Origin: Escherichia phage Phagiculus | DNA: 46,458 bases | Reading direction: 5' to 3' (one strand) | Sequence record: OR896821.1 | Program-made: the position numbers and the translations under genes | Shown here: positions 8,312 through 39,377 of the stretch, piece by piece | How the letters are laid out: every line of letters starts with the position of its first letter | Numbering within the stretch: position 1 is the stretch's first letter | Notes under the pieces: generated by a model | What the model was told of the DNA's origin: nothing | The model's database searches: none | The model's input: only the letters and a program-made list of their open reading frames with translations

Positions 8312-9853
8312 TTATGGCAGCTTGAATGTCTCAATCCTAATTGCGATGTTAAAACTAGTATCAGCTGGGCGCTGAAGGTGAAAAACATCAATCATTATAA
8401 TGTTTTTATCTCCCCAATCTCTAGCTGAGAATTGAATTCTTTTATATCCCCCACCAGTATAACCCGCAGGATCACCTACAACATACCTGCTAGTTCCTGC
8501 AATTGTGTGGTTTGACTGATATCTCTTAACTACGTCAGCGGATGGAAAGTTTACAACCTCAACATCAAAATACCTTCCTGCAATTGAGTTGCCTACAAAA
8601 GAGTACTCAATGTTATTCCCAACCCTTCTTACTGAAAAAGAGATGCCAGGGTTGTTTGGTATAGCTATAGCTGAGTAGCTTGTCGATACGGTAAGTTGAG
8701 TTGTATAAACTGGATTGTTTGTATTATTTTGACCTGCTGGACCCTGTGGGCCGGTTGCGCCAGTTTCGCCTTTTTCTCCTTTGTCGCCCTTTTCGCCCCT
8801 CTCTCCCTGTGGTCCTTGTGGCCCCACCGCTCCAGCAACGCCTCTAATGCCTTGCGGCCCTTGAATACCCTGAGGTCCAGTATCACCTTTTGGCCCTTGA
8901 GGACCGGCTGGTCCAGTAATACCCTGCAATCCTTGATCACCTTTTGGCCCCTGTTCACCTGGTAAACCTTGAATACCTTGCTGGCCCTGAACCCCTCTTG
9001 GACCCTGCTGTCCTGTTTCTCCTTTTTCACCTTGAGGGCCGATATCACCAGGGTCGCCTTTTTCACCCTTATCACCCTTCGTCCCCTGAGCGGCAAGAAC
9101 AACCCACAGAGGTGATACTCCAGGTTCCTCATCTTCTGCAATGTTGCTAACTGCGAAGTAGGTTGAGCCACCGTAAACTACGGTATCATCTTTTGCATAA
9201 CCAGTATCAGGAACCCATTGCCCACGGAATGTTAAACCAGCAGGCCCGACTTCGCCAGGATCACCTTTCTCACCAGTATCACCTTTTAATCCTTGCGGAC
9301 CTTGTGGGCCGATATCACCCCTATCTCCCTTGTCGCCTTTCAAGCCTGCTGGGCCTTGAATTCCCTGTGGACCTTGAATACCTTGAGGGCCAATTGGTCC
9401 TTGTGGACCTACCGCACCACGCTCACCTTTTTCCCCATCAGCGCCATCGTCACCCTTTGGACCCTGCGGACCCTCTGGTCCAACTTCCCCTCGTGGACCT
9501 TGAGGACCTTGCGGACCAGCCATTCCATCCCTGCCAGATGTTCCCTGAAACCCTTTAGTTAACGCAACTGCAAACTGATTTGACTCGGATGAAGGTTCGC
9601 CAAAAACCTCCCAACCTTCGTGAGTGATTTCGTTTACTCTATCAATTAGCTTTTGGCGACTGGTTGCACTCAGAACCATGAAGTCGGTAATATCTGCGTT
9701 AGTTCCCTTAGCTACAACCATGCCAATAGTGTTAGAGCCAGTGCCTGTTAATACTCTATCAAATGGCTGCCAACCTTCTGCAATTGCCTCTAGCACCTTG
9801 CGGCTAAGTGATGCCGTGTTACCAGCAAGGATTTGCCTAAATTCTAAAGCCAT
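8312..9853 (-). CDS. collagen-like repeat protein with embedded CBM5/12 (ChtBD3)-like segment
   Basis: two long Gly-X-Y runs (GPQGPQGPRGEVGPEGPQGPKGDDG... and GDKGEKGDPGDIGPQGEKG...) separated by WVPDTGYAKDDTVVYGGSTYFAV...PLW; non-collagen N- and C-terminal domains. Confidence 0.8.
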   Translation of the reverse strand: MALEFRQILAGNTASLSRKVLEAIAEGWQPFDRVLTGTGSNTIGMVVAKGTNADITDFMVLSATSRQKLIDRVNEITHEGWEVFGEPSSESNQFAVALTKGFQGTSGRDGMAGPQGPQGPRGEVGPEGPQGPKGDDGADGEKGERGAVGPQGPIGPQGIQGPQGIQGPAGLKGDKGDRGDIGPQGPQGLKGDTGEKGDPGEVGPAGLTFRGQWVPDTGYAKDDTVVYGGSTYFAVSNIAEDEEPGVSPLWVVLAAQGTKGDKGEKGDPGDIGPQGEKGETGQQGPRGVQGQQGIQGLPGEQGPKGDQGLQGITGPAGPQGPKGDTGPQGIQGPQGIRGVAGAVGPQGPQGERGEKGDKGEKGETGATGPQGPAGQNNTNNPVYTTQLTVSTSYSAIAIPNNPGISFSVRRVGNNIEYSFVGNSIAGRYFDVEVVNFPSADVVKRYQSNHTIAGTSRYVVGDPAGYTGGGYKRIQFSARDWGDKNIIMIDVFHLQRPADTSFNIAIRIETFKLP

Positions 9854-13514: not shown

Positions 13515-15083
13515 TTATCTAATTCCAGCTAGTCGCTTCAGAGCTGCTTTAGGGTCATCTGCGAGGTTAAGTTCACAGTTGATAGCCATTGTTGTGGTAT
13601 CCACGATGTCATCATGAAGGTGACTGTCGTCAGCAGTGAATGCAGCAAACTCAGCAAGGAATGCAGGCAACCAGGGCGCAGACTCTGGCAAAATAACGTT
13701 ACCAGCCTTAATCTGAGGTAATGCACTCATTACTCGCGTAAGTTTGTCGCTGTCCGGAACAAACGGCTCTATAGGTGTTCTCATCGTTCTGCTTGCTGAC
13801 TGAATCAGTCCGATGCCAGACGCCTTCTTCTCGATGATAACTTTGCGAAGGATTCCGTCAATCTTATTCATTGAGCGGGCCTTAGCTTCAAACTCGACGA
13901 GAGTAGCCTCAAGTTCAGGCGCTTCCCATTTGCCGCGAACCATGTCAAGTAAGTAAGCCTTACGGTCCTTAACTCCCCACAGCTGGAATACGGAGAAGTC
14001 GCTATAGCTCTTAGTAGTCATCGCAGTGTCAGCCGTGATAAATCGGTAATCGTACTTAGCTGGAGGTCTGTTGTTCTCATCAATTCGAGCAAACCAGTCT
14101 ACGTTAACCAGGTTTCCACCTAGAGCCACTGGCTCCTGCTGGTACTGACTCATGAATGTGTAGTGGTCAGAGTCCATCATAGACACCAGGTCGTGAACAG
14201 ATTCCTTTTTAGGGAAGTAGCTATAATACTTCACGCCATCGCGTTCAACATATTCGCTTGATAGCACGTCATCAATGAATTGCTGCTTAATCCAATCAGG
14301 CAATGTATCGACGTAATCTTCAGTAACTAGCGCAGGAATCTTAACCACATCGAAGTCTATACCCATACCACCAGAAGTCATGAACCAAGTTGAGTCGTTC
14401 ACGTGCAAGCGCTGCTGGATGGAAAGAATTGGCGTGGCCTTACCTTTTACCGAACTTGCACGACGAGAGCGAACGGTGTTTTTAAGAAGCGTATGAACAG
14501 CCTCTCTGCGAACCTTGCTAAACATGTCGTCTGCTTTATCAATATCATCCAGCATTAAACAGCCGCTATAATTATCAGTGATATATCCCCCGCGAGCGCC
14601 AATTATCTGACCGCCAATCGCCTTAGAGATGGACTCAAACCTGACCTTTCCAGACTCATCAAGAACCTGAATCTCATCATCCTTGCATGTTCCAAACTTA
14701 GACGGGAATAACTCCTGGAACTCAGTTGACTTAATCAGGTCACGCACCCGCTTTGAGTTACGCTTCACCAGACTATCCGAGAACGATAAGTTAAGGTTCC
14801 TAACCTTTTGTAGCTTGAGCATTGAGTAGACTGGAAAGTGGATTGAAGTAATCTCAGTCTTACCAGCACCAGGCGCTACGTTAATGATTGTATCTTTGCG
14901 CTCGCCACTGATTACCTCGTCGATGATTCTGCAAAGGTACTTGTGATGCCAGTTGGGGATATAGCGTTCGCCCTGTGTTAGCTGAAACCACACCCGAAGG
15001 AATGCCTCGAAGTTGTGAGTGGATAAAGCTTTAACTGCCAGCTTTTCGGCTGGCGTCATATCTTCCCAAACTAGTGTATTCAT
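13515..15083 (-). CDS. terminase large subunit
   Basis: Walker A VAPGAGKTE; 522 aa; ATGA overlap with upstream small gene. Confidence 0.85.
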   Translation of the reverse strand: MNTLVWEDMTPAEKLAVKALSTHNFEAFLRVWFQLTQGERYIPNWHHKYLCRIIDEVISGERKDTIINVAPGAGKTEITSIHFPVYSMLKLQKVRNLNLSFSDSLVKRNSKRVRDLIKSTEFQELFPSKFGTCKDDEIQVLDESGKVRFESISKAIGGQIIGARGGYITDNYSGCLMLDDIDKADDMFSKVRREAVHTLLKNTVRSRRASSVKGKATPILSIQQRLHVNDSTWFMTSGGMGIDFDVVKIPALVTEDYVDTLPDWIKQQFIDDVLSSEYVERDGVKYYSYFPKKESVHDLVSMMDSDHYTFMSQYQQEPVALGGNLVNVDWFARIDENNRPPAKYDYRFITADTAMTTKSYSDFSVFQLWGVKDRKAYLLDMVRGKWEAPELEATLVEFEAKARSMNKIDGILRKVIIEKKASGIGLIQSASRTMRTPIEPFVPDSDKLTRVMSALPQIKAGNVILPESAPWLPAFLAEFAAFTADDSHLHDDIVDTTTMAINCELNLADDPKAALKRLAGIR

Positions 15084-15595
15084 AGCTTATCCATAATTGA
15101 TTCAAGTGCGGCCTTCATAACTTCTTCATCGTTAACAACAGCACTAGATGCGTTGTTGATGTTAACTTCTTGAGGCTTGTCGATACCTAAGTCTTTACCA
15201 ATCAGACTAGAGTTAACGATGTTATTCACACCCAGCTGATACTTCTGCTCAAAGATGACTGAATCTACAAACTCCATAACTTCAGAGAAGCCAGGGGATG
15301 AGCGCCAGTGGCTAATGGCATTTCCCGTAACCCCGCAAAATAATTGGAATCCGTTAATGGTGAAAACTCGCGGCTTATGAATAAGGTTCTCAGTAACAAT
15401 CCCCTGATGAGATGCAGTTTCAATAGCCTTAATTGCCTGGCTCTCTGCCCAAGTGAAATACCTTACCGCCATATCAAACAATTGCTCTGGCGTGAACTTG
15501 TGGTTAATCTTCAGGTTAGCAATATCTCCGTACTTCTTGTTGTAAAGCTCCTTGAAGTTACCAATCTTCTGGTGAATCTTCTTCTCTTCTTGCAT
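15080..15595 (-). CDS. terminase small subunit (putative)
   Basis: 171-aa ORF translationally coupled to terL; AAGGAGG RBS before ATG at 15595. Confidence 0.45.
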   Translation of the reverse strand: MQEEKKIHQKIGNFKELYNKKYGDIANLKINHKFTPEQLFDMAVRYFTWAESQAIKAIETASHQGIVTENLIHKPRVFTINGFQLFCGVTGNAISHWRSSPGFSEVMEFVDSVIFEQKYQLGVNNIVNSSLIGKDLGIDKPQEVNINNASSAVVNDEEVMKAALESIMDKL

Positions 15596-15889: not shown

Positions 15890-15965
15890 TGGCGTTCCGC
15901 GCTGGACTCGAACCAGCAACTGAGACTTAGGAGGTCTCTGCGTTATCCCGTTACGCCAGCAGAAC
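15890..15965 (-). tRNA. tRNA-Arg (anticodon CCU)
   Basis: hand-folded cloverleaf: 7-bp acceptor GTTCTGC/GCGGAAC, D-stem GCGT/ACGC, anticodon stem GAGAC/GTCTC with loop CTCCTAA, T-arm GCTGG-TTCGAGT-CCAGC, discriminator G, encoded CCA. Confidence 0.8.
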
Positions 15966-18078: not shown

Positions 18079-18576
18079 TTAATTCATCTCCTTAATCATA
18101 TCCTGGTACATCCGGATAGCTTTGATAGCGCCAGATAACTCATCACCTTCCATATCAACGATATTAGGGCTTAACTTCAGGATTCGCTCCTTAAAACTCT
18201 CAATTGCCTTTATCTCAATGTGCTCGTTAGTCTTGTTACGAACCCCTTCTTTAATTGCTCCTTTAATGAGGGTGATCTTCGCACAGTACTCAACCTCATC
18301 TTTGAACTCCATGTCACCAAAAGAAAGTCTAGCTCTGTAATCGGCGTCCTTCATTGACTCCATTCTGCTGGCAGTGTTTGCAACATAGGATGCTTTTAGC
18401 TTGGTAATCTCATAACGACCGCCTCGCTTGAAGTCAACATCAGAAGAGTCGAAGTCAACCTCTCCACCAAGCAGCTGATAAATCTTCTTGACCGGTACAT
18501 GGAACTCTTTGGCCTCAGACTTGAGTGCCTCATCAACCATACCTCGCACTACATCACCCAAAGTTGTATTGCTCAT
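18079..18576 (-). CDS. hypothetical protein (165 aa)
   Basis: first gene of the early minus-strand block. Confidence 0.55.
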   Translation of the reverse strand: MSNTTLGDVVRGMVDEALKSEAKEFHVPVKKIYQLLGGEVDFDSSDVDFKRGGRYEITKLKASYVANTASRMESMKDADYRARLSFGDMEFKDEVEYCAKITLIKGAIKEGVRNKTNEHIEIKAIESFKERILKLSPNIVDMEGDELSGAIKAIRMYQDMIKEMN

Positions 18577-19014
18577 GTCTTTCCCCTCTCGTTAAGTTAC
18601 ATCCATAATATAGCGGACTTATATACGTGTCAATAGCTGTGAAAAAAAATAGACATTGCATGTTTTTACGCTTTAGCCCATGAGAGCCCCGCCACTGCTG
18701 ACTGTGAATCGCTGTGCACAATGTAGATAGAATCCCGCCGGACCCCCTATATATATCTATATCCTTTCGGAGATATGAATATACATCATTGAGAGGAAAC
18801 ATATGGGTATCACCATTATGGCTATCTACACTATTTACATAACAATATTATAATAATAATAATAACTCTAAGTTGTTTATATATATAGATATTTTATTGT
18901 AACTAGCTGTAAATTTACGCGGATTGCGTAGATAAATTCCCGCGCGCGCATTTTTGTCTATAGCTTTAACTTCGTTTACGCGTATCGCATATAGATGAAG
19001 AAATTTAGCCGCAA

Positions 19015-19170
19015 ATGTGAGATGTGCAATCACCATCATCATTTCATTCAATCAATCCATCAATCATTGCAGAAATGGCAACAATCAACAAACCTGTTGC
19101 AATCGATGAAATATTGCTGTATTTGCAATAGTTATGTGAATCATTGCAATTACTGCAACAATCCATAAAT
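19015..19170. repeat. cluster of about 7 palindromic TTGCAA(T) sites (iteron-like)
   Basis: gtgcaatc, cattgcag, gttgcaatcg, tttgcaatag, cattgcaatt, ctgcaacaatc within about 150 bp. Confidence 0.5.
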
Positions 19171-19178
19171 CTAACGAA

Positions 19179-19222
19179 TAGCACTTTTTGCTAAAGACGA
19201 AACCACCATGATTGGGTATAGT
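19179..19222 (+). promoter_or_regulatory. conserved promoter module
   Basis: tagcactttttgcta then aagacg then TATAGT at 19217..19222; leader CCATCGAAACGAA. Confidence 0.6.
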
Positions 19223-19260
19223 TACTCCATCGAAACGAACCAAACACAGGAATCTGAATC

Positions 19261-19443
19261 ATGGCTAAGAAAATCAATAAAAACTCACCAGTAACTAAAG
19301 AAAACATGGTTGCTCTTCTGGTCCAGGAAGGCTACAACCTGGCCAATACTGAAGTCCTGGTAGATACATGGTTTAAAAAGATGGTTAGCGCGCACCCTGA
19401 AGACAACATTAAAGAACTGGCTTACTACTTTAAACACCTGTAA
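19261..19443 (+). CDS. hypothetical protein (60 aa)
   Basis: first gene after promoter module. Confidence 0.55.
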   Translation: MAKKINKNSPVTKENMVALLVQEGYNLANTEVLVDTWFKKMVSAHPEDNIKELAYYFKHL

Positions 19444-20842: not shown

Positions 20843-22426
20843 ATGTTTGATTTTAACGATGACAAATTGACTGTTGAGCAAGTAATGGCTGTTGCCGCTC
20901 AGGATGGATTGCCTCCCTTACGCGTTGCTATTAATGCTAATGGATATCGCCAGTCTCAATCATTCTGGAAATCACCTGTAGAGATTGACTCTGCAAATGA
21001 TAAGTACCCTACCATCTCTCTTGGTAACGATTTTGATGTGGTTGGTAAGTTAGCTAATAACATTGCTCGCTCTGTTCAGTTCCCCGAGGCTTCAGCTTAC
21101 ATGCACTTCCTGGGTTGCATCTCTGCGGCAATGCTAGGCCGCTTTACGGTTGAGTATCATGGAACTCAGCAACCTACGGCTTTGTACGTGGTAACTAGCC
21201 AGCCCCCATCCACTGGTAAGTCAGCAATCAACTCATTAGCGATTGCGCCAATGGTTGCAGAGGTTGAGCGAATCAACGACCAACGTAAACGTGAACGCAA
21301 GAAGATTATGGCTAAGCTGTCTGCGTTGGCTAAAGAGATGAAACAGGAGAAGTCACCATCTGAAATGGCATCTCTCTTTGAAGAGAAAGAAGACCTGGAG
21401 GAGAAGCTTGAGAAGATGTGCGATGTTGTATTCCCTGTTTCCGACACAACACCCGAAGGTCTTGCTCGCATCAACAATCGCCAGGGTAACTTTGCGGTAA
21501 TCTCGGATGAGGCGACATCAGTAAACTCATTGCTTGGCATGACTTATGGCGATAGTAGCAAGAAGACAAACAGCGAACTAGTTCTTAAGGCGTGGGACTC
21601 TGGTAACGTATCAATCGCTCGTGCCAACGCAGAAAACAATATGAGTTTTGTTGCTTTAGGTTGCATCTCTGTAATCGCGCAGGATGAGACAATTAACGCA
21701 ATAATGGATGCTGGTGCTCGTGGTATCGGTGTATCAGAGCGTTTCTTATTAGTTCGTGAAAAATCATTCCTGGGCGAACGTGTATTTGTTAACGATAACG
21801 GTGAATCAACTTACGAGCCCATCGATAATGGACTGAAAGCTGATTACTTCCGCCTGGTTCATGAAATTATGTCAGAGGTTGATGTTAAGCTGACAATCAG
21901 TAACGGTGCAGCGCTTTACCTTAACCGCGCTCGTCAGGAAATGGAACCTCACCTCGGTGATGGAGGCAAATACTCTCACTCCATGCTACGTGGCGCTCTG
22001 GGCAAGTTTGATAAGCAGGTAATTCGTATTGCGGCAGTTCTTCATACAATTCGCAATTGGGTTAATCTTAATGGTGGTAGTCCGCAGAAAGAAAGAACAA
22101 TTGACCTTGATACTATGCAGGAAGCCATTGCGATTTTCCATGAACTTAGTAAGACTTATCTTTCATCTGCAAATGCGGCTGGTCATGCTGGTGATAATGC
22201 CGAGATGAATAAGCTGATTGATATTTTGATTAAGCAAGGCAAGGCATCCAAAGGAGTGGTGGGCATTCGTGCGCTTTACGAAGCTGCTCGCAAGGTAAAA
22301 CCATTTAACTCCCAGAATGGTACCATGTTAAAGATTAAAGAACACTTAATGCCAATGCTTGATGAAAAAAACTACACTTGCACAATAGGAGAGAAAATTT
22401 ATGTCAACCCTCGCTTGCTTAGCTGA
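20843..22426 (+). CDS. P-loop NTPase, DUF3987-like replication-associated protein
   Basis: Walker A-like QPPSTGKS and Walker B-like VISDEA. Confidence 0.55.
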   Translation: MFDFNDDKLTVEQVMAVAAQDGLPPLRVAINANGYRQSQSFWKSPVEIDSANDKYPTISLGNDFDVVGKLANNIARSVQFPEASAYMHFLGCISAAMLGRFTVEYHGTQQPTALYVVTSQPPSTGKSAINSLAIAPMVAEVERINDQRKRERKKIMAKLSALAKEMKQEKSPSEMASLFEEKEDLEEKLEKMCDVVFPVSDTTPEGLARINNRQGNFAVISDEATSVNSLLGMTYGDSSKKTNSELVLKAWDSGNVSIARANAENNMSFVALGCISVIAQDETINAIMDAGARGIGVSERFLLVREKSFLGERVFVNDNGESTYEPIDNGLKADYFRLVHEIMSEVDVKLTISNGAALYLNRARQEMEPHLGDGGKYSHSMLRGALGKFDKQVIRIAAVLHTIRNWVNLNGGSPQKERTIDLDTMQEAIAIFHELSKTYLSSANAAGHAGDNAEMNKLIDILIKQGKASKGVVGIRALYEAARKVKPFNSQNGTMLKIKEHLMPMLDEKNYTCTIGEKIYVNPRLLS

Positions 22427-22883
22427 TGTTTATTATGATGGTATAGATTTAGTCTGGGCTAGAGATATGGGACCAGCAATAATAAAGGGCAGTTATTGCG
22501 GAAACATTTCAAGGGGTGGGTACAAAAGGTTTTATCATGCAGGTAAACGGCTTAGTAATCACATTGTTATATGGAATATAGTAAATGGAGAAATACCTAA
22601 AGGAATGGAAATTGACCACATAAATCATGACAGATCTGAAAATAGAATAGAAAATTTAAGGCTGGTATCAAGACAGGAAAATGCAAAAAACAAAGGAATC
22701 TATAAAAGCAATACTAGCGGTTTTTCTGGGGTTACTATAGAAAAGAACGGCAAGTTTAAAGCAAGAATATCTGTGAGTGGTAAAAGGGTAGCGCTTGGAA
22801 CTTACATTGATTTTAATGATGCTTGCAACGCGATAATGAAAGCCAGATTGAAGTACAAATTCCACGAAAATCACGGAGGTTAA
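22401..22883 (+). CDS. HNH homing endonuclease with AP2-like domain
   Basis: EIDHINHDRSENRIENLRLVSRQEN; paralogous to 35967..36440. Confidence 0.8.
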   Translation: MSTLACLADVYYDGIDLVWARDMGPAIIKGSYCGNISRGGYKRFYHAGKRLSNHIVIWNIVNGEIPKGMEIDHINHDRSENRIENLRLVSRQENAKNKGIYKSNTSGFSGVTIEKNGKFKARISVSGKRVALGTYIDFNDACNAIMKARLKYKFHENHGG

Positions 22884-27345: not shown

Positions 27346-27584
27346 TAATGCAACTCCTCGCACTCAAAGCTAAAAATAATCATGTCGTTATAATCAGTAA
27401 GGTAATACGAAGTGCCATCAAGTGACTTTTCAGCCTCGAAGACTTTTGCATCTCCCTTACTTTCAGTGAGGTAATACGAAGTGCCATCAAATGATTTTTC
27501 AGCCTCGAATACTCTTGTACCTCCCTTACTTTCAATCCACCTTGATAGTGCCATTGTTGGGTTTGTGATTACTATTTTCATCAT
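27345..27584 (-). CDS. hypothetical protein with internal 23-aa tandem repeat
   Basis: VFEAEKSFDGTSYYLTE / VFEAEKSLDGTSYYLTD. Confidence 0.5.
   Translation of the reverse strand: MMKIVITNPTMALSRWIESKGGTRVFEAEKSFDGTSYYLTESKGDAKVFEAEKSLDGTSYYLTDYNDMIIFSFECEELH
27397..27536. repeat. 69-bp tandem duplication (2 copies, near-identical) inside CDS
   Basis: ggtaatacgaagtgccatcaa...cctcgaa...cccttactttca repeated with period 69. Confidence 0.8.
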
Positions 27585-35966: not shown

Positions 35967-36440
35967 TCATTCGTGATTTTCATGAAATCCAAGCTCTAAC
36001 AGCTTATTCCTTCTTGATTCCGCAGCATCACTCAATGAGTTAAAGTACCCACAGTGGTAATACTTACCATTACACCTAACTGACGCTTTATATTTATTCA
36101 TCCTTTTGCAAAAAGTTACACCTTGAACTCCAGTTTTTGAGTTTTTGCCTATTGATTTATTTTTATTGTTATCAGAGCAAGTGACAAGTCTAAGGTTTTC
36201 AATTCTGTTATCTCCATTATCATGATTTATATGATCAACTTGCATTCCTTTCGGTATTGGTCCGTTAAACATCTCCCATACAACCCTGTGAACAAAGTAT
36301 ATCTTCTTATCAAGACCAACTCTCTTATATCCTGTCTTTTCTACCCTCCCAGCCTCCCATCCGACACATATAACTCTTGATGGCTTAACCTTCCAAAATA
36401 TTAAACCTTCACTGTAATCAAACCAATCATGCCAATTCAT
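35967..36440 (-). CDS. HNH homing endonuclease with AP2-like domain
   Basis: QVDHINHDNGDNRIENLRLVTCSDNNKNK; C-terminal ELGFHENH. Confidence 0.8.
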   Translation of the reverse strand: MNWHDWFDYSEGLIFWKVKPSRVICVGWEAGRVEKTGYKRVGLDKKIYFVHRVVWEMFNGPIPKGMQVDHINHDNGDNRIENLRLVTCSDNNKNKSIGKNSKTGVQGVTFCKRMNKYKASVRCNGKYYHCGYFNSLSDAAESRRNKLLELGFHENHE

Positions 36441-37386
36441 ATTTTTTCATCTCATATTCTGGTATCTGCAAATCCATCTCTGTTTCGCCAAATCCGTAAC
36501 CAGGCCAAATATCAAGTTTCTTGCATTGCTTGTACACAGAAAGCGCGCTCATATACTGCAATCTACCAACCTTTAATTGCTCCTTGGTTATCGTGTAGCA
36601 CATTGGCAAGAAAGGGCTTTTCTTCTCCTGGCAAAGAAGCTGTACAACAACTTTACGTTTTTCACCAAAGGCGCGAACAAACAAATCATGTTGAAGCGAC
36701 ATTTTTAGCAAGTAACCATGCTTGAATGCCAATCTCCCAAATCCAGACGGAGAAGCATCACTAGTCGTCTTGTAATCTCGGATGTAAACAACATCATCAA
36801 CAACATCAACATGGTCCAGTCGAACCTTTACGCCGCACTCGTTAATCTCACCGAAGATTGATAACTCTCTCTGAGCGGTCTTGCTGTTTACTATAGCGTT
36901 GTAAGCCGGAATGCCACATAACACGTCTCGCATCGCCTGTACAGTGTCAAAGTCTTTAGCTGATACAATCTCGCGCCCATTTGCTTTAGCCTCGCTAGAG
37001 CGCTGAATATCCCACCATACGTTAAGTGATTCCCCACTCAGAGCCAACATCTCCATCAACTCCGGGTAATCCTTACCAGATGTCCCAGCAATTCCCATAG
37101 ACTTCAATCGAGTTGCCAATGCTGCCTTGCTGGTAATAAGGTCTTCAAATTCTTCCTGTGATGGTTGGCGATAGTAAGTCGCATCAAATACAGAGTTCTC
37201 AAGAATAACCGTATGGGCTAATGTACCGAACTTTAAAGCCTTACTGCTATCATCATGCTCTGCAAACTTATACGCCGCTGGACAAGTTGAGAATATGTGA
37301 GCCAGGCCAGAGCCTGACACATGGTCAGACTCCTGATGGTAGGCTTCGTTGGTTAACTCATCGTTAGTGTAAACCTTGAAGCTCAT
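36427..37386 (-). CDS. PD-(D/E)XK-type exonuclease (recombination partner of Erf)
   Basis: VRLDHVD...IRDYKT D-(D/E)-x-K pattern; adjacent to erf and ssb. Confidence 0.6.
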   Translation of the reverse strand: MSFKVYTNDELTNEAYHQESDHVSGSGLAHIFSTCPAAYKFAEHDDSSKALKFGTLAHTVILENSVFDATYYRQPSQEEFEDLITSKAALATRLKSMGIAGTSGKDYPELMEMLALSGESLNVWWDIQRSSEAKANGREIVSAKDFDTVQAMRDVLCGIPAYNAIVNSKTAQRELSIFGEINECGVKVRLDHVDVVDDVVYIRDYKTTSDASPSGFGRLAFKHGYLLKMSLQHDLFVRAFGEKRKVVVQLLCQEKKSPFLPMCYTITKEQLKVGRLQYMSALSVYKQCKKLDIWPGYGFGETEMDLQIPEYEMKKYELA

Positions 37387-38869: not shown

Positions 38870-39272
38870 TCATGAGCCCGCACCAACACTGGATGTAACT
38901 CATGTAAACGCTGTAACAGTAGTTTTTGCGCCCCTATCTATATATCCATATGCATTTGGCAACACCAGAAACAGAACTTAGTCATTTCAAAAAAACATAT
39001 CAACACAACCATAGAAGGTAGTTACACTATATACAAACAAATATAGTAATAATAATAATTACTCTAAACCCTTATTATATAAGGATTCTTTAGTGTAACT
39101 AATGCGTATCTGCGCGTAAAAAGCGTATACAATTTCCCGCGGGTCAGGATTGCATACATCGATTTACATAGGTTACGCGTATATCAAATAGCACGATTTG
39201 CTAAAGACTGACTGAAGCACCTTTGGTATAGTTACTCCATCGAAACGAAAAACACTTAATAAGGATTCAAAA
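38870..39272. repeat. AT-rich control region B, paralogous to 18670..19260
   Basis: same ordered sequence blocks as region A, ending in conserved promoter module. Confidence 0.6.
39189..39232 (+). promoter_or_regulatory. conserved promoter module
   Basis: tagcacgatttgcta, aagact, TATAGT at 39227..39232; leader TACTCCATCGAAACGAA identical to the one at 19222..19250. Confidence 0.6.
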
Positions 39273-39377
39273 ATGACTAACTTCGCAACCAACGTACTGG
39301 CTTTCACCTTCGGCGTGGCGACTACCAGCTTCTTCGTTTGGGTTCTTCTTCTGGCTAGCAACTTTAAAGGATTCTAA
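39273..39377 (+). CDS. small membrane peptide (34 aa, MTNFATNVLAFTFGVATTSFFVWVLLLASNFKGF), not in ORF track
   Basis: AAGGA RBS 8 nt before ATG; one TM helix; stop 1 nt before lipoprotein ATG. Confidence 0.4.
   Translation: MTNFATNVLAFTFGVATTSFFVWVLLLASNFKGF

What the first reader, a model, noticed from the sequence alone, without database searches (positions are those of the whole stretch)
19015..19170. Cluster of palindromic TTGCAA(T) sites: candidate origin or repressor-titration array
About seven TTGCAA/ATTGCAAT sites occur within 150 bp inside control region A, beside an AT-rich tract and upstream of the first plus-strand operon. Clustered short palindromes next to AT-rich DNA are the usual signature of iterons or multimeric regulator binding. 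Region B has only one such site.
Basis: inference. Interest (0 to 1): 0.55.

Follow-up and report, generated by a model that had tools for sequence, protein, structure and literature searches.

The report
Likely DNA-packaging start site array
A real, strongly conserved, non-coding cluster of short TTGCA/TGCAAC repeats in a T1-like phage lies next to where related phages make the first cut for packaging DNA into heads, so it is most likely the long-undefined packaging recognition (pac) site, not an origin or repressor sink.

Summary
The cluster is real but overstated. There are three exact TTGCAA sites and seven with up to one mismatch. The relaxed core TGCAA/TTGCA occurs nine times in 156 bp (0 of 300 shuffles reach this).

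The window is a T1-like (Drexlerviridae) phage. The cluster lies in a ~540-bp non-coding gap between divergent early promoters. It abuts the promoter of the operon that encodes the DUF3987 helicase.

Window 19042-19170 is conserved at about 74-88% nucleotide identity in 128 phage records, one copy each. That puts it among the most conserved stretches of the genome. It shows no codon periodicity, no RNA covariation and no Rfam match, so it is most likely a protein-binding DNA array.

Its recurring parts are ATCATTGCA-N6-GCAACAATC (twice) and TTGC-N7-GCAA palindromes.

Sequencing-derived packaging termini of three relatives (MSK, UDF157lw, SU57) map 10-35 bp left of the array. The T1, Rtp, Rogue1 and ESCO41 records start inside it, and the TLS record starts in the homologous gap.

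Best reading (about 0.5): it is the small-terminase recognition array of the pac site, with packaging running leftward. A replication origin or an upstream regulator array is not excluded. One relative (TR2) reports a terminus elsewhere. No sequence-level pac definition turned up in the papers read.

The parts
19042..19170 (.). Conserved non-coding array, from TTTCATTC to ATAAATC, carrying the TTGCA/TGCAAC repeats. Proposed pac recognition region.
   Evidence: It aligns in 22 distinct relatives with invariant blocks. 128 phage records match, one copy each. It is the second most conserved HSP against Jk06, at 88%. It has no codon periodicity and no RNA covariation.
19062..19087 (.). Unit A: AATCATTGCA-N6-GCAACAATCA, an imperfect inverted repeat that includes TTGC-N7-GCAA at 19067-19081.
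   Evidence: It is a direct repeat of unit B, 77 bp away (D2). The same unit is present in T1 and in contig L080, and partly in L050.
19096..19127 (.). Central sites: GTTGCAATCGATGAAAT (a degenerate palindrome; relatives read GATGCAAT), the GAAATATTGC palindrome, and TTGCTGTATTTGCAA.
   Evidence: The blocks TTGCA, AATATTGC and GCAAT are invariant or nearly so. T1 has GTTGCAcaccaTGCAAC at this position.
19139..19172 (.). Unit B: AATCATTGCAATTACTGCAACAATCC, followed by the invariant ATAAATC.
   Evidence: GCAACAATC occurs only three times in the genome, two of them here.
19012..19035 (-). Predicted zone of the first packaging cut, by homology. Packaged DNA would run toward lower coordinates.
   Evidence: Termini projected through the alignment: MSK PhageTerm terminus 36,862 to about 19029; start of the PhageTerm-reorganised UDF157lw record to about 19035; SU57 record end to about 19012. 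The flank is poorly conserved, so positions are good to about 10 bp.
19177..19224 (+). Promoter of the plus-strand helicase operon. It consists of the family-wide repeat AATAGCACTTTTTGCTAAAGAC (palindrome TAGCA-N5-TGCTA), a weak -35, a 17-bp spacer and the -10 TATAGT.
   Evidence: At least ten copies of the repeat lie upstream of operons in the window (D3, D6, D7, I2-I12). It matches the 21-nt repeat aaATAGCACnnnTTGnTAAAA described for TLS (PMC11447400). The spacer is fully variable among relatives.
18605..18633 (-). Near-consensus sigma-70 promoter (TTGACA-17-TATTAT) for the leftward early operon.
   Evidence: It scores 11 of 12 in the promoter scan. The first leftward gene is 18079-18576, DUF7174.
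18820..18900 (.). AT-rich tract (80-85% AT) inside the same non-coding gap, on the packaged side of the predicted cut.
   Evidence: Analogous AT-rich tracts lie at the same relative place in T1 and TLS. A related copy lies in region B, 38982-39101.
15080..15595 (-). Small terminase gene, the candidate binder of the array.
   Evidence: Pfam PF16677 GP3_package at E=8e-10 and phrog_606 terminase small subunit at E=4e-57. It is 55% identical to T1 TerS.
13515..15083 (-). Large terminase gene.
   Evidence: 58% identity to T1 TerL over 520 aa.
20843..22426 (+). DUF3987 helicase, the conserved gene of the operon that starts beside the array. It is relevant to the rival origin reading.
   Evidence: Pfam PF13148 at E=9e-42. 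It is 85-89% identical in all array-bearing phages tested.

Best explanation
The array at 19042-19170 is the recognition part of the phage's pac site, where headful DNA packaging begins.

Proposed mechanism:
1. The oligomeric small terminase (P22 gp3 family, gene at 15080-15595) binds the repeated ATCATTGCA / GCAACAATC / TTGC-N7-GCAA motifs on concatemeric DNA.
2. It recruits the large terminase.
3. The large terminase makes the first cut a short, sequence-independent distance beyond the left edge of the array, near 19012-19035.
4. DNA is then packaged toward lower coordinates, through the leftward early operon and on to the terminase and structural genes. The array stays on the non-packaged side of the first cut.

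What is shown and what is inferred:
- Shown here: the array is real, single-copy, non-coding and under nucleotide-level purifying selection.
- Shown in relatives, from published data projected by alignment: packaging termini lie at its edge.
- Inferred: that the small terminase is the protein that binds it, and that the same cut is made in this phage.
For: 1. Conservation without coding or RNA signatures.
- 128 phage records match, one copy per genome.
- Blocks are invariant across Braunvirinae, Rogunavirinae and Nouzillyvirus, while the flanks and the promoter spacer are free to vary.
- Mean column entropy is 0.44, against 0.93 at helicase third codon positions and 1.37 in the promoter spacer.
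- The ratio of codon-phase entropies is 1.26-1.48. In the helicase control it is at least 4.6 in all 47 windows.
- There are no compensatory base pairs on either strand and no Rfam family.

2. Termini from independent laboratories map to the array's left edge.
- MSK: PhageTerm terminus at 36,862, forward direction (PMC8421802). This is 17 nt left of the TTTCATTC block.
- UDF157lw: the deposited record was reorganised by PhageTerm and called headful with a preferred pac site (PMC10838988). It starts 10 nt left of that block.
- SU57: the record was opened at the PhageTerm end with an abrupt coverage change (PMC7718038). It starts about 35 nt left.
- In all three, the packaging direction points away from the array.

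3. Record starts in other relatives.
- The T1 record (terminal repeat annotated at 1-2800) starts inside its copy of the array, right after GTTGCAcaccaTGCAAC.
- TLS, whose pac was placed by restriction mapping, starts in the homologous gap.
- The Rtp, Rogue1, OzMSK and ESCO41 records start inside the array. Two further contigs (L050, L080) start just left of it.
- The SU57 authors state that the pac site lies in this region in T1-like phages but was not identified.

4. Other supporting points.
- The cut-side flank is not conserved, while the array is. From my own knowledge, this fits pac systems in which recognition is specific and cleavage is positional.
- The phage encodes a P22-gp3-family small terminase.
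- The array is absent from 5,426 E. coli genomes and from PLSDB plasmids, so a host-factor regulon is unlikely.
- TLS, which infects E. coli, lacks the TTGCA motifs altogether. That argues for a co-evolving phage protein.
Against: - No terminus data exist for this phage itself. The projection rests on an alignment whose left flank is diverged in the window.
- PhageTerm calls for T1-like phages are inconsistent. TR2 (Braunvirinae) was reported to start at 18,637, which is a terminator hairpin between ssb and the recombinase gene. OzMSK and KanT1 gave no terminus.
- SU57's end was chosen partly by comparison with T1, so it is not fully independent. Several record starts may simply copy the T1 convention.
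- The T1 and Rtp-type starts lie 85-130 bp from the PhageTerm termini.
- Small terminase is only 64-65% identical in EC3a and P818, which carry an ~80% identical array. The adjacent DUF3987 helicase is 85-89% identical. Co-variation therefore does not favour terminase over a replication protein.
- There is no similarity to the P22 pac 22-mer (best 13 of 22), although the terminase family is the same.
- The array lies 3.5 kb from terS. From my own knowledge, in P22, SPP1 and P1 the pac site lies in or beside the terminase gene.
Confidence: 0.5

Rival explanations
1. Replication origin. The array would be the binding site for a phage replication initiator, possibly the DUF3987 helicase encoded 1.6 kb downstream or a small early protein. 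The AT-rich tract at 18820-18900 would serve as the unwinding element. The packaging cut would merely lie nearby.
For: - The origin of T1-like phages is unknown (PMC11447400, PMC7718038).
- The array heads the operon that encodes the DUF3987 helicase. That helicase is the most uniformly conserved protein among array-bearing phages: 85-89%, against 44-86% for most others.
- An AT-rich tract and further repeat families (TGTCAATAGCTGTGAA four times, TTTACGCGnATnGCnTA twice) lie in the same gap.
- From my own knowledge, short repeats in both orientations occur in P4 and SaPI origins.
Against: - There is no direct evidence of any kind.
- The motifs are not phased direct iterons.
- The AT-rich tract is about 140 bp away, with the packaging cut zone in between.
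- T1's helicase is 56% identical and T1 keeps part of the array. TLS's helicase is 72% identical and TLS has none. This is the opposite of what helicase co-variation predicts.
- One DnaA box, 400 bp away, is unremarkable.
Confidence: 0.17
2. Upstream regulatory array. A phage-encoded, or less likely host, transcription factor would bind the repeats from about -60 to -190. It would activate, silence or time the helicase-operon promoter, and perhaps the divergent leftward promoter.
For: - The array ends 7 bp before the promoter-associated 21-nt repeat. The -10 is at 19217-19222.
- It lies between two divergent early promoters.
- The motifs are palindromic, as expected for dimeric helix-turn-helix proteins.
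Against: - At least ten other promoters with the same 21-nt repeat have no such array, so it is not part of the general promoter design.
- It does not overlap the core promoter.
- The first genes downstream differ between phages that share the array.
- There is no match in E. coli genomes, and the array is absent in TLS. Both argue against a host factor.
- This reading does not explain why termini map here.
Confidence: 0.2
3. A small protein-coding gene. Candidates are the plus-strand 57-aa Cys-rich ORF (18995-19168), in which TGCAAT/TGCAAC read as Cys-Asn, and the minus-strand ORF (19085-19243), which is annotated as 'membrane protein' in some relatives.
For: - The plus-strand frame is open in 8 of 10 relatives and ends at a conserved TAA.
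- The minus-strand ORF hits phrog_25275 'membrane protein' at E=1e-22. It is annotated in EC3a and AHS24.
Against: - Substitutions are not concentrated at any codon phase: the ratio is 1.26-1.48, against at least 4.6 in a real gene from the same phages.
- P818 and e4/1c have in-frame stops, and cysteines are replaced in Jk06, e4/1c and JeanPiccard.
- There is no Shine-Dalgarno sequence before either ATG and no conserved start.
- The minus-strand ORF would run through the plus-strand promoter repeat.
- Conserved DNA being annotated in several genomes is enough to explain the PHROG family.
- There is no Pfam hit.
Confidence: 0.03
4. A structured non-coding RNA or a cruciform-forming hairpin (arms 19106-19129 and 19143-19166).
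For: - The fold energy z-score is about -3.2 to -3.4 on both strands.
- There are many weak miRNA-precursor-like Rfam hits, all far below threshold.
- There is a 24-nt inverted repeat at 79% complementarity.
Against: - There are no compensatory pairs among 22 sequences on either strand.
- No Rfam family reaches threshold.
- No promoter or terminator frames the element.
- Self-complementarity follows automatically from motifs that occur in both orientations.
Confidence: 0.03

Closest known systems
Bacillus phage SPP1 pac (pacL-pacC-pacR)
   Same: Recalled from the literature, not tested here. Several short small-terminase binding boxes are spread over about 100 bp. They lie largely on the non-encapsidated side, directly beside a cut whose own sequence matters little. 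Headful packaging is unidirectional. This is the same layout inferred here: the array is on the non-packaged side, and the cut lies 10-35 bp beyond its edge in MSK, UDF157lw and SU57.
   Different: SPP1 pac lies within or next to the small terminase gene, whereas this array is 3.5 kb away, between early promoters. The box sequences are unrelated. The small terminase here belongs to the P22 gp3 Pfam family.
Phage P1 pac
   Same: Recalled from the literature. A ~160-bp site is built from seven copies of a palindromic hexamer in two clusters around the cut. This is the closest analogue to many short palindromes marking a packaging start. In T1 the record start falls between a TTGCA cluster and a TTCCA/TGGAA cluster.
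   Different: P1's hexamers contain GATC and are controlled by Dam methylation, and the site has an IHF site. This array has no GATC, the phage has no Dam homologue and avoids GATC genome-wide, and no IHF consensus is present. The PhageTerm termini lie at the edge of the array, not its centre.
Phage P22 pac
   Same: It has the same small terminase family (PF16677), headful packaging, and imprecise series-initiation cuts near the site (the last point recalled).
   Different: P22 pac is a single asymmetric 22-bp sequence inside gene 3. The element's best match to it is 13 of 22, which is background level. The shared 8-mer AGATTTAT occurs three times in the genome against 2.8 expected.
T1 and TLS pac as placed in the literature
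   Same: The genomic place is the same: the divergent non-coding gap upstream of the helicase operon. T1 carries ATCATTGCA-N6-GCAACAATCA and GTTGCA-N5-TGCAAC at its record start.
   Different: None of the papers I could read defines a recognition sequence for T1-like phages. TLS pac was assigned through an AGATTT match to P22. A suggestion that ATATA repeats mark the T1 pac is cited second-hand. TLS has no TTGCA array; it has AGACCAATCGGTCT twice and AATCA runs.
The 21-nt intergenic repeat of T1-like phages (aaATAGCACnnnTTGnTAAAA; PMC11447400)
   Same: It lies directly adjacent (19177-19197) and is conserved together with the array in every relative.
   Different: It is a multi-copy, promoter-associated element, with at least ten copies in this genome. 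The TTGCA array is single-copy and has a different motif.

Membership tests
pac site of a headful-packaging phage | It coincides with the unique end of the first headful in virion DNA. | tested here: inconclusive
   The feature is met in relatives through published termini projected by alignment: MSK, UDF157lw and SU57 at window-equivalent 19012-19035, and T1 inside the array. TR2 contradicts it. No reads exist for this phage.
pac site of a headful-packaging phage | The phage encodes a small and a large terminase of a headful type. | tested here: met
   TerS hits PF16677 GP3_package and phrog_606. TerL is 58% identical to T1 TerL. T1-like phages are documented headful packagers.
pac site of a headful-packaging phage | A single specific site per genome. 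| tested here: met
   Most of the 128 matching records have one place each. GCAACAATC, ATCATTGCA and TTGC-N7-GCAA are essentially confined to 19062-19164 in the window.
pac site of a headful-packaging phage | It is bound specifically by the small terminase, and it suffices to direct packaging or transduction when moved. | not testable with these tools
   This needs EMSA or footprinting and a plasmid transduction assay.
P1-type pac (Dam-controlled hexamer clusters) | The repeats contain GATC, and an IHF site lies between the clusters. | tested here: not met
   There is no GATC in 18580-19262 and no exact IHF consensus. The phage has no Dam homologue, and GATC occurs 38 times against 161 expected.
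P22-type pac | Similarity to the 22-bp P22 pac sequence, located inside the small terminase gene. | tested here: not met
   The best match in the element is 13 of 22, and the genome-wide best (16 of 22) lies elsewhere. The element is 3.5 kb from terS.
Iteron-type replication origin | Direct repeats of about 17-22 bp in helical phase, next to an AT-rich unwinding element. | tested here: not met
   The cores are 4-9 bp, occur in both orientations, and are spaced 9-31 bp apart. The only long direct repeat is the two 34-nt units 77 bp apart. The AT-rich tract is about 140 bp away.
Iteron-type replication origin | It supports initiation of replication. | not testable with these tools
   This needs marker-frequency analysis, 2D gels or plasmid assays.
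Operator array of a repressor | The sites overlap the core promoter or transcription start, and a cognate regulator gene is nearby. | tested here: not met
   The array lies upstream of the 21-nt repeat and the -35. The adjacent ORFs are DUF7421 and DUF7174, with no DNA-binding domain found.
Protein-coding gene | A three-base periodicity of substitutions and a conserved open frame with a start and a ribosome-binding site. | tested here: not met
   The phase entropy ratio is 1.26-1.48, against at least 4.6 in the control gene. Two relatives have in-frame stops.
Structured RNA (any Rfam family) | A covariance-model match or compensatory base changes. | tested here: not met
   No family reaches threshold. 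There are no compensatory pairs.

The most novel reading that the evidence does not exclude
The array is a dual-purpose landmark. The same ~130-bp set of TTGCA/TGCAAC sites would serve as the replication origin, recognised by the DUF3987 helicase module it travels with, and as the packaging start. Replication initiation, early-operon transcription and the first terminase cut would then be physically coupled at one locus in T1-like phages. That would define both the unknown origin and the unknown pac of the family.
Probability: 0.1. Interest if true: 0.65.

Novelty: new variant of a known kind. Interest (0 to 1): 0.42.

Why it matters
T1 is one of the seven classical T phages, and T1-like phages are notorious contaminants of laboratories and fermenters. 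They are also generalised transducers. Even so, the papers I could read place the pac site only roughly and give no recognition sequence. One of them states outright that it was not identified.

A defined ~130-bp candidate with explicit motifs makes the question directly testable by terminase footprinting, plasmid transduction and mutagenesis.

It would also give annotators a principled point at which to open about 130 Drexlerviridae records. At present those records start at four or more different places within the same ~170 bp.

Finally, it would show that a P22-family small terminase can use a multi-repeat site far from its own gene.

If the array turns out to be an origin or a regulatory array instead, it would still be the first defined cis-element of that kind in this group.

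Tried and rejected
- Small Cys-rich ORF (TGCAAT read as Cys-Asn codons) and the minus-strand 'membrane protein' ORF. Rejected: no codon periodicity, in-frame stops in relatives, and no start or ribosome-binding site.
- Non-coding RNA or hairpin. Rejected: no Rfam match and no covariation.
- Similarity to the P22 pac 22-mer, and the shared AGATTTAT 8-mer. Both are at chance level.
- IHF and DnaA sites. There is no IHF consensus. There is one DnaA box, 400 bp away.
- Dam/GATC control as in P1. There is no GATC in the region and no phage dam.
- Host-factor regulon, satellite or plasmid copies of the array. None were found in E. coli complete genomes, PLSDB or one genome per bacterial species.
- Protein co-variation to tell the terminase and helicase readings apart. 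Inconclusive. TerS identity to the window orders the relatives Jk06, P818/EC3a, T1, TLS, which matches how much of the array each retains. The DUF3987 helicase, however, is the most uniformly conserved protein in array-bearing phages.
- Helical phasing of the motifs. No clean period emerged (positions).
- The Rtp genome paper could not be retrieved. The T1 genome paper could not be consulted either, so I could not learn how the record starts of T1 and Rtp were chosen.
- The IMG/VR pattern scan added few new homologues, and most 17-mer hits were chance matches.

Full report
**What is in the sequence.** The window is a T1-like phage genome of the family Drexlerviridae. Its proteins are 43-58% identical to those of T1 and up to 95% identical to those of Jk06.

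The finding lies in a non-coding gap of about 540 bp between two divergent promoters:
- On the left is a near-consensus sigma-70 promoter for the leftward early operon (TTGACA-17-TATTAT, 18633-18605).
- On the right is the promoter of the first plus-strand operon (19177-19224).

The right-hand promoter carries the family-wide repeat AATAGCACTTTTTGCTAAAGAC. This is the 21-nt repeat of unknown function described for TLS (PMC11447400). At least ten copies lie in this window. The operon it drives leads to a DUF3987 helicase at 20843-22426.

**Checking the observation.** Only three exact TTGCAA sites lie in 19015-19170 (19097, 19123, 19144), and only one exact ATTGCAAT.

TTGCAA is not enriched genome-wide: 26 found against 25.8 expected. 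Three exact copies in 156 bp is only marginal, because 20 of 300 shuffles match it. The shorter cores are clearly clustered:
- TGCAA/TTGCA occurs nine times.
- TTGC/GCAA occurs twelve times.

Both counts are genome maxima, and none of 300 dinucleotide shuffles reaches either.

The real repeat structure is richer than a hexamer:
- There are two 26-nt units, AATCATTGCA-N6-GCAACAATC, at 19062 and 19139, 77 bp apart.
- Between them lie a degenerate GTTGCA...GCAAT palindrome, the palindrome GCAATATTGC (GAAATATTGC in the window), and TTGCTGTATTTGCAA.
- Three of the genome's four TTGC-N7-GCAA sites lie within 92 bp.

**Conservation.** The segment 19033-19239 was the only part of a 2.5-kb query that matched most relatives in megablast.

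The array alone (19036-19176) matches 128 phage records, essentially one copy each, at about 74-88% identity. The records are from Braunvirinae, Rogunavirinae, Nouzillyvirus and others. Against Jk06 it is the second most conserved HSP in the genome.

In an alignment of 22 distinct sequences, several blocks are invariant or nearly so: TTCATTC, CATT, GCAACA, TTGCA, AATATTGC, GCAAT, AATCATTGCAAT, TGCAACAAT and ATAAATC. The sequence to the left, the promoter spacer and the first downstream gene all vary freely.

T1 and two other lineages (contigs L050 and L080) keep part of the array, such as ATCATTGCA-N6-GCAACAATCA and TTGCA-N5-TGCAAC. TLS has none; it has other repeats at the same place.

**It is neither a gene nor an RNA.** The plus strand has a 57-aa Cys-rich ORF in which TGCAAT/TGCAAC read as Cys-Asn. 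A minus-strand ORF matches a PHROG called 'membrane protein'.

Several results argue against either being a gene:
- Substitutions show no codon periodicity. Phase entropies are 0.39, 0.53 and 0.45, giving a ratio of 1.26-1.48. The helicase gene of the same phages gives 0.17, 0.06 and 0.93, with a ratio of at least 4.6 in all 47 windows.
- Two relatives have in-frame stops, and cysteines are replaced in others.
- There is no ribosome-binding site.

Conserved DNA being annotated repeatedly is enough to explain the PHROG family.

No Rfam family matches. RNAalifold finds no compensatory pair on either strand. The favourable fold energy follows from motifs that occur in both orientations. A sequence this conserved, with this block pattern, is best read as a protein-binding DNA array.

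**What it is for: termini.** The decisive lead came from genome ends.
- In T1 the homologous gap spans the record ends. The record is linear with its terminal repeat annotated at 1-2800. Position 1 falls directly after GTTGCAcaccaTGCAAC, inside T1's copy of the array.
- TLS starts in the same gap. Its pac was placed there by restriction mapping and then fixed through an AGATTT match to P22.
- For MSK, PhageTerm gave a one-sided terminus at 36,862.
- The deposited UDF157lw record was reorganised by PhageTerm, which called headful packaging with a preferred pac site.
- SU57 was opened at the PhageTerm end that showed an abrupt change in coverage.

Projected through the alignment, the last three termini fall at window-equivalent 19029, 19035 and 19012. 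That is 10-35 bp left of the first conserved block, and packaging runs away from the array.

Other record boundaries:
- The Rtp, Rogue1, OzMSK, IMM-001 and ESCO41 records start inside the array.
- EC3a, ZL19 and two IMG/VR contigs start just left of it.

Some of these starts surely copy the T1 convention. The MSK and UDF157lw termini are independent measurements in different subfamilies.

The SU57 authors say explicitly that the pac site lies in this region in T1-like phages but was not identified.

**Mechanism proposed.** The small terminase (P22 gp3 family) binds the repeats as an oligomer and positions the large terminase. The first cut is made just beyond the left edge of the array, at a non-conserved sequence. 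Headfuls are then filled leftward.

From what I recall of the literature, this layout resembles SPP1 pacL/pacC most closely. In its use of many short palindromes it resembles P1 pac. It differs from P1 in having no GATC or IHF site. It differs from P22 in showing no similarity to the 22-bp pac and in lying 3.5 kb from terS.

**Caveats and rivals.**
- There are no reads for this phage.
- TR2, a relative, was reported to start at a terminator hairpin between ssb and the recombinase gene. Two other studies found no terminus.
- Co-variation does not single out the terminase. TerS is 64-65% identical in EC3a and P818, whereas the adjacent DUF3987 helicase is 85-89% identical. Against that, T1 (helicase 56%) keeps part of the array and TLS (helicase 72%) keeps none.

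A replication origin therefore remains possible, since none is known for the family. So does an upstream regulatory array for the adjacent promoter. Neither has direct evidence, and neither explains the termini. The array is absent from E. coli genomes, plasmids and one genome per bacterial species, which argues against a host-factor regulon.

**Verdict.** The cluster is a real, conserved, single-copy, non-coding protein-binding array. The specific origin and repressor-titration readings are unsupported. The best-supported function is pac recognition, with a confidence of about 0.5.

That would be a new variant of a known kind of element. It is of moderate interest because it turns the undefined T1-family pac site into a concrete, testable sequence.

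Noticed in passing
window, whole genome (GATC positions): There is strong GATC avoidance: 38 sites against 161 +/- 10 expected. No Dam methylase homologue is present. Among relatives, Dam-less Jk06 and EC3a have 54 and 58 GATC sites. Dam-encoding P818, T1 and TLS have 184, 235 and 281. GATC depletion therefore tracks loss of the phage dam gene.
   Followed up: partly
window 19177-19224 and at least ten other sites, e.g. 4545, 17114, 18046, 19673, 20765, 25045, 25488, 28057, 35946, 38675, 39187: This is the promoter-associated repeat AATAGCACnnnTTGCTAAAGAC, the 21-nt repeat of unknown function reported for TLS. It contains a 15-bp palindrome, TAGCA-N5-TGCTA. By my own count the palindrome is centred near -43, upstream of a -10 TATAGT with a 17-bp spacer after a weak -35. 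That is the position of a class II activator site.
   Followed up: partly
window 19172-19240: About 68 bp of this promoter and leader match ~178-kb T4-like Cronobacter, Enterobacter and Klebsiella phages at 77-79% identity. The matches lie under annotated hypothetical proteins. This may be a shared promoter or leader module between unrelated phage families.
   Followed up: no
window 18786-18905 and 38982-39101: The AT-rich tract of this control region has a second copy in the other divergent control region ('region B'). The tools report 70% identity and 85% mean column identity for the same 120 ungapped columns. Region B (38932-39284) is also among the most conserved stretches against Jk06, at 80-89%.
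   Followed up: partly
window 18628-18991: Further repeat families lie in the same non-coding gap: TGTCAATAGCTGTGAA-like four times (18628, 18703, 18898, 18955), GTAGATAnAnTCCCGC twice (18723, 18928) and TTTACGCGnATnGCnTA twice (18914, 18975). ACGCGTAT is conserved in relatives about 50 bp left of the mapped termini.
   Followed up: no
L088 (phage TR2, OP251154) about 18,625-18,645: The published PhageTerm 'packaging initiation site' of TR2 (18,637) lies in a GC-rich terminator hairpin, GGGGCCTAAGCCCC, between ssb and the recombinase gene. This may be a library artefact rather than a pac end.
   Followed up: partly
window 8719-9518, minus strand: There are long collagen-like Gly-X-Y coding repeats, seen as families of 9-nt-periodic direct repeats (D1, D2, D5, D10). 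The Rogue1 paper describes GPVGP repeats in a virion protein of that phage (gp21).
   Followed up: no
window 15890-15965, minus strand: A tRNA-Arg (anticodon CCT) lies just upstream of the small terminase gene.
   Followed up: no
window 27394-27531: There is a perfect-register tandem duplication of a 69-nt unit, 90% identical, in the minus-strand region next to the SNF2-like helicase gene (D9).
   Followed up: no
window 22559-22666 and 36184-36291: There is a 108-nt inverted repeat, 72% complementary, with arms 13.5 kb apart (I1). It is unexplained.
   Followed up: no
L034 (TLS) record 49,720-49,790, just upstream of its helicase-operon promoter: At the position of the TTGCA array, TLS carries two tandem copies of the palindrome AGACCAATCGGTCT, three GATC sites and runs of AATCA. 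T1 carries ATTCCAG twice and TGGAAT twice there. Each subfamily seems to have its own repeat set at this spot.
   Followed up: partly
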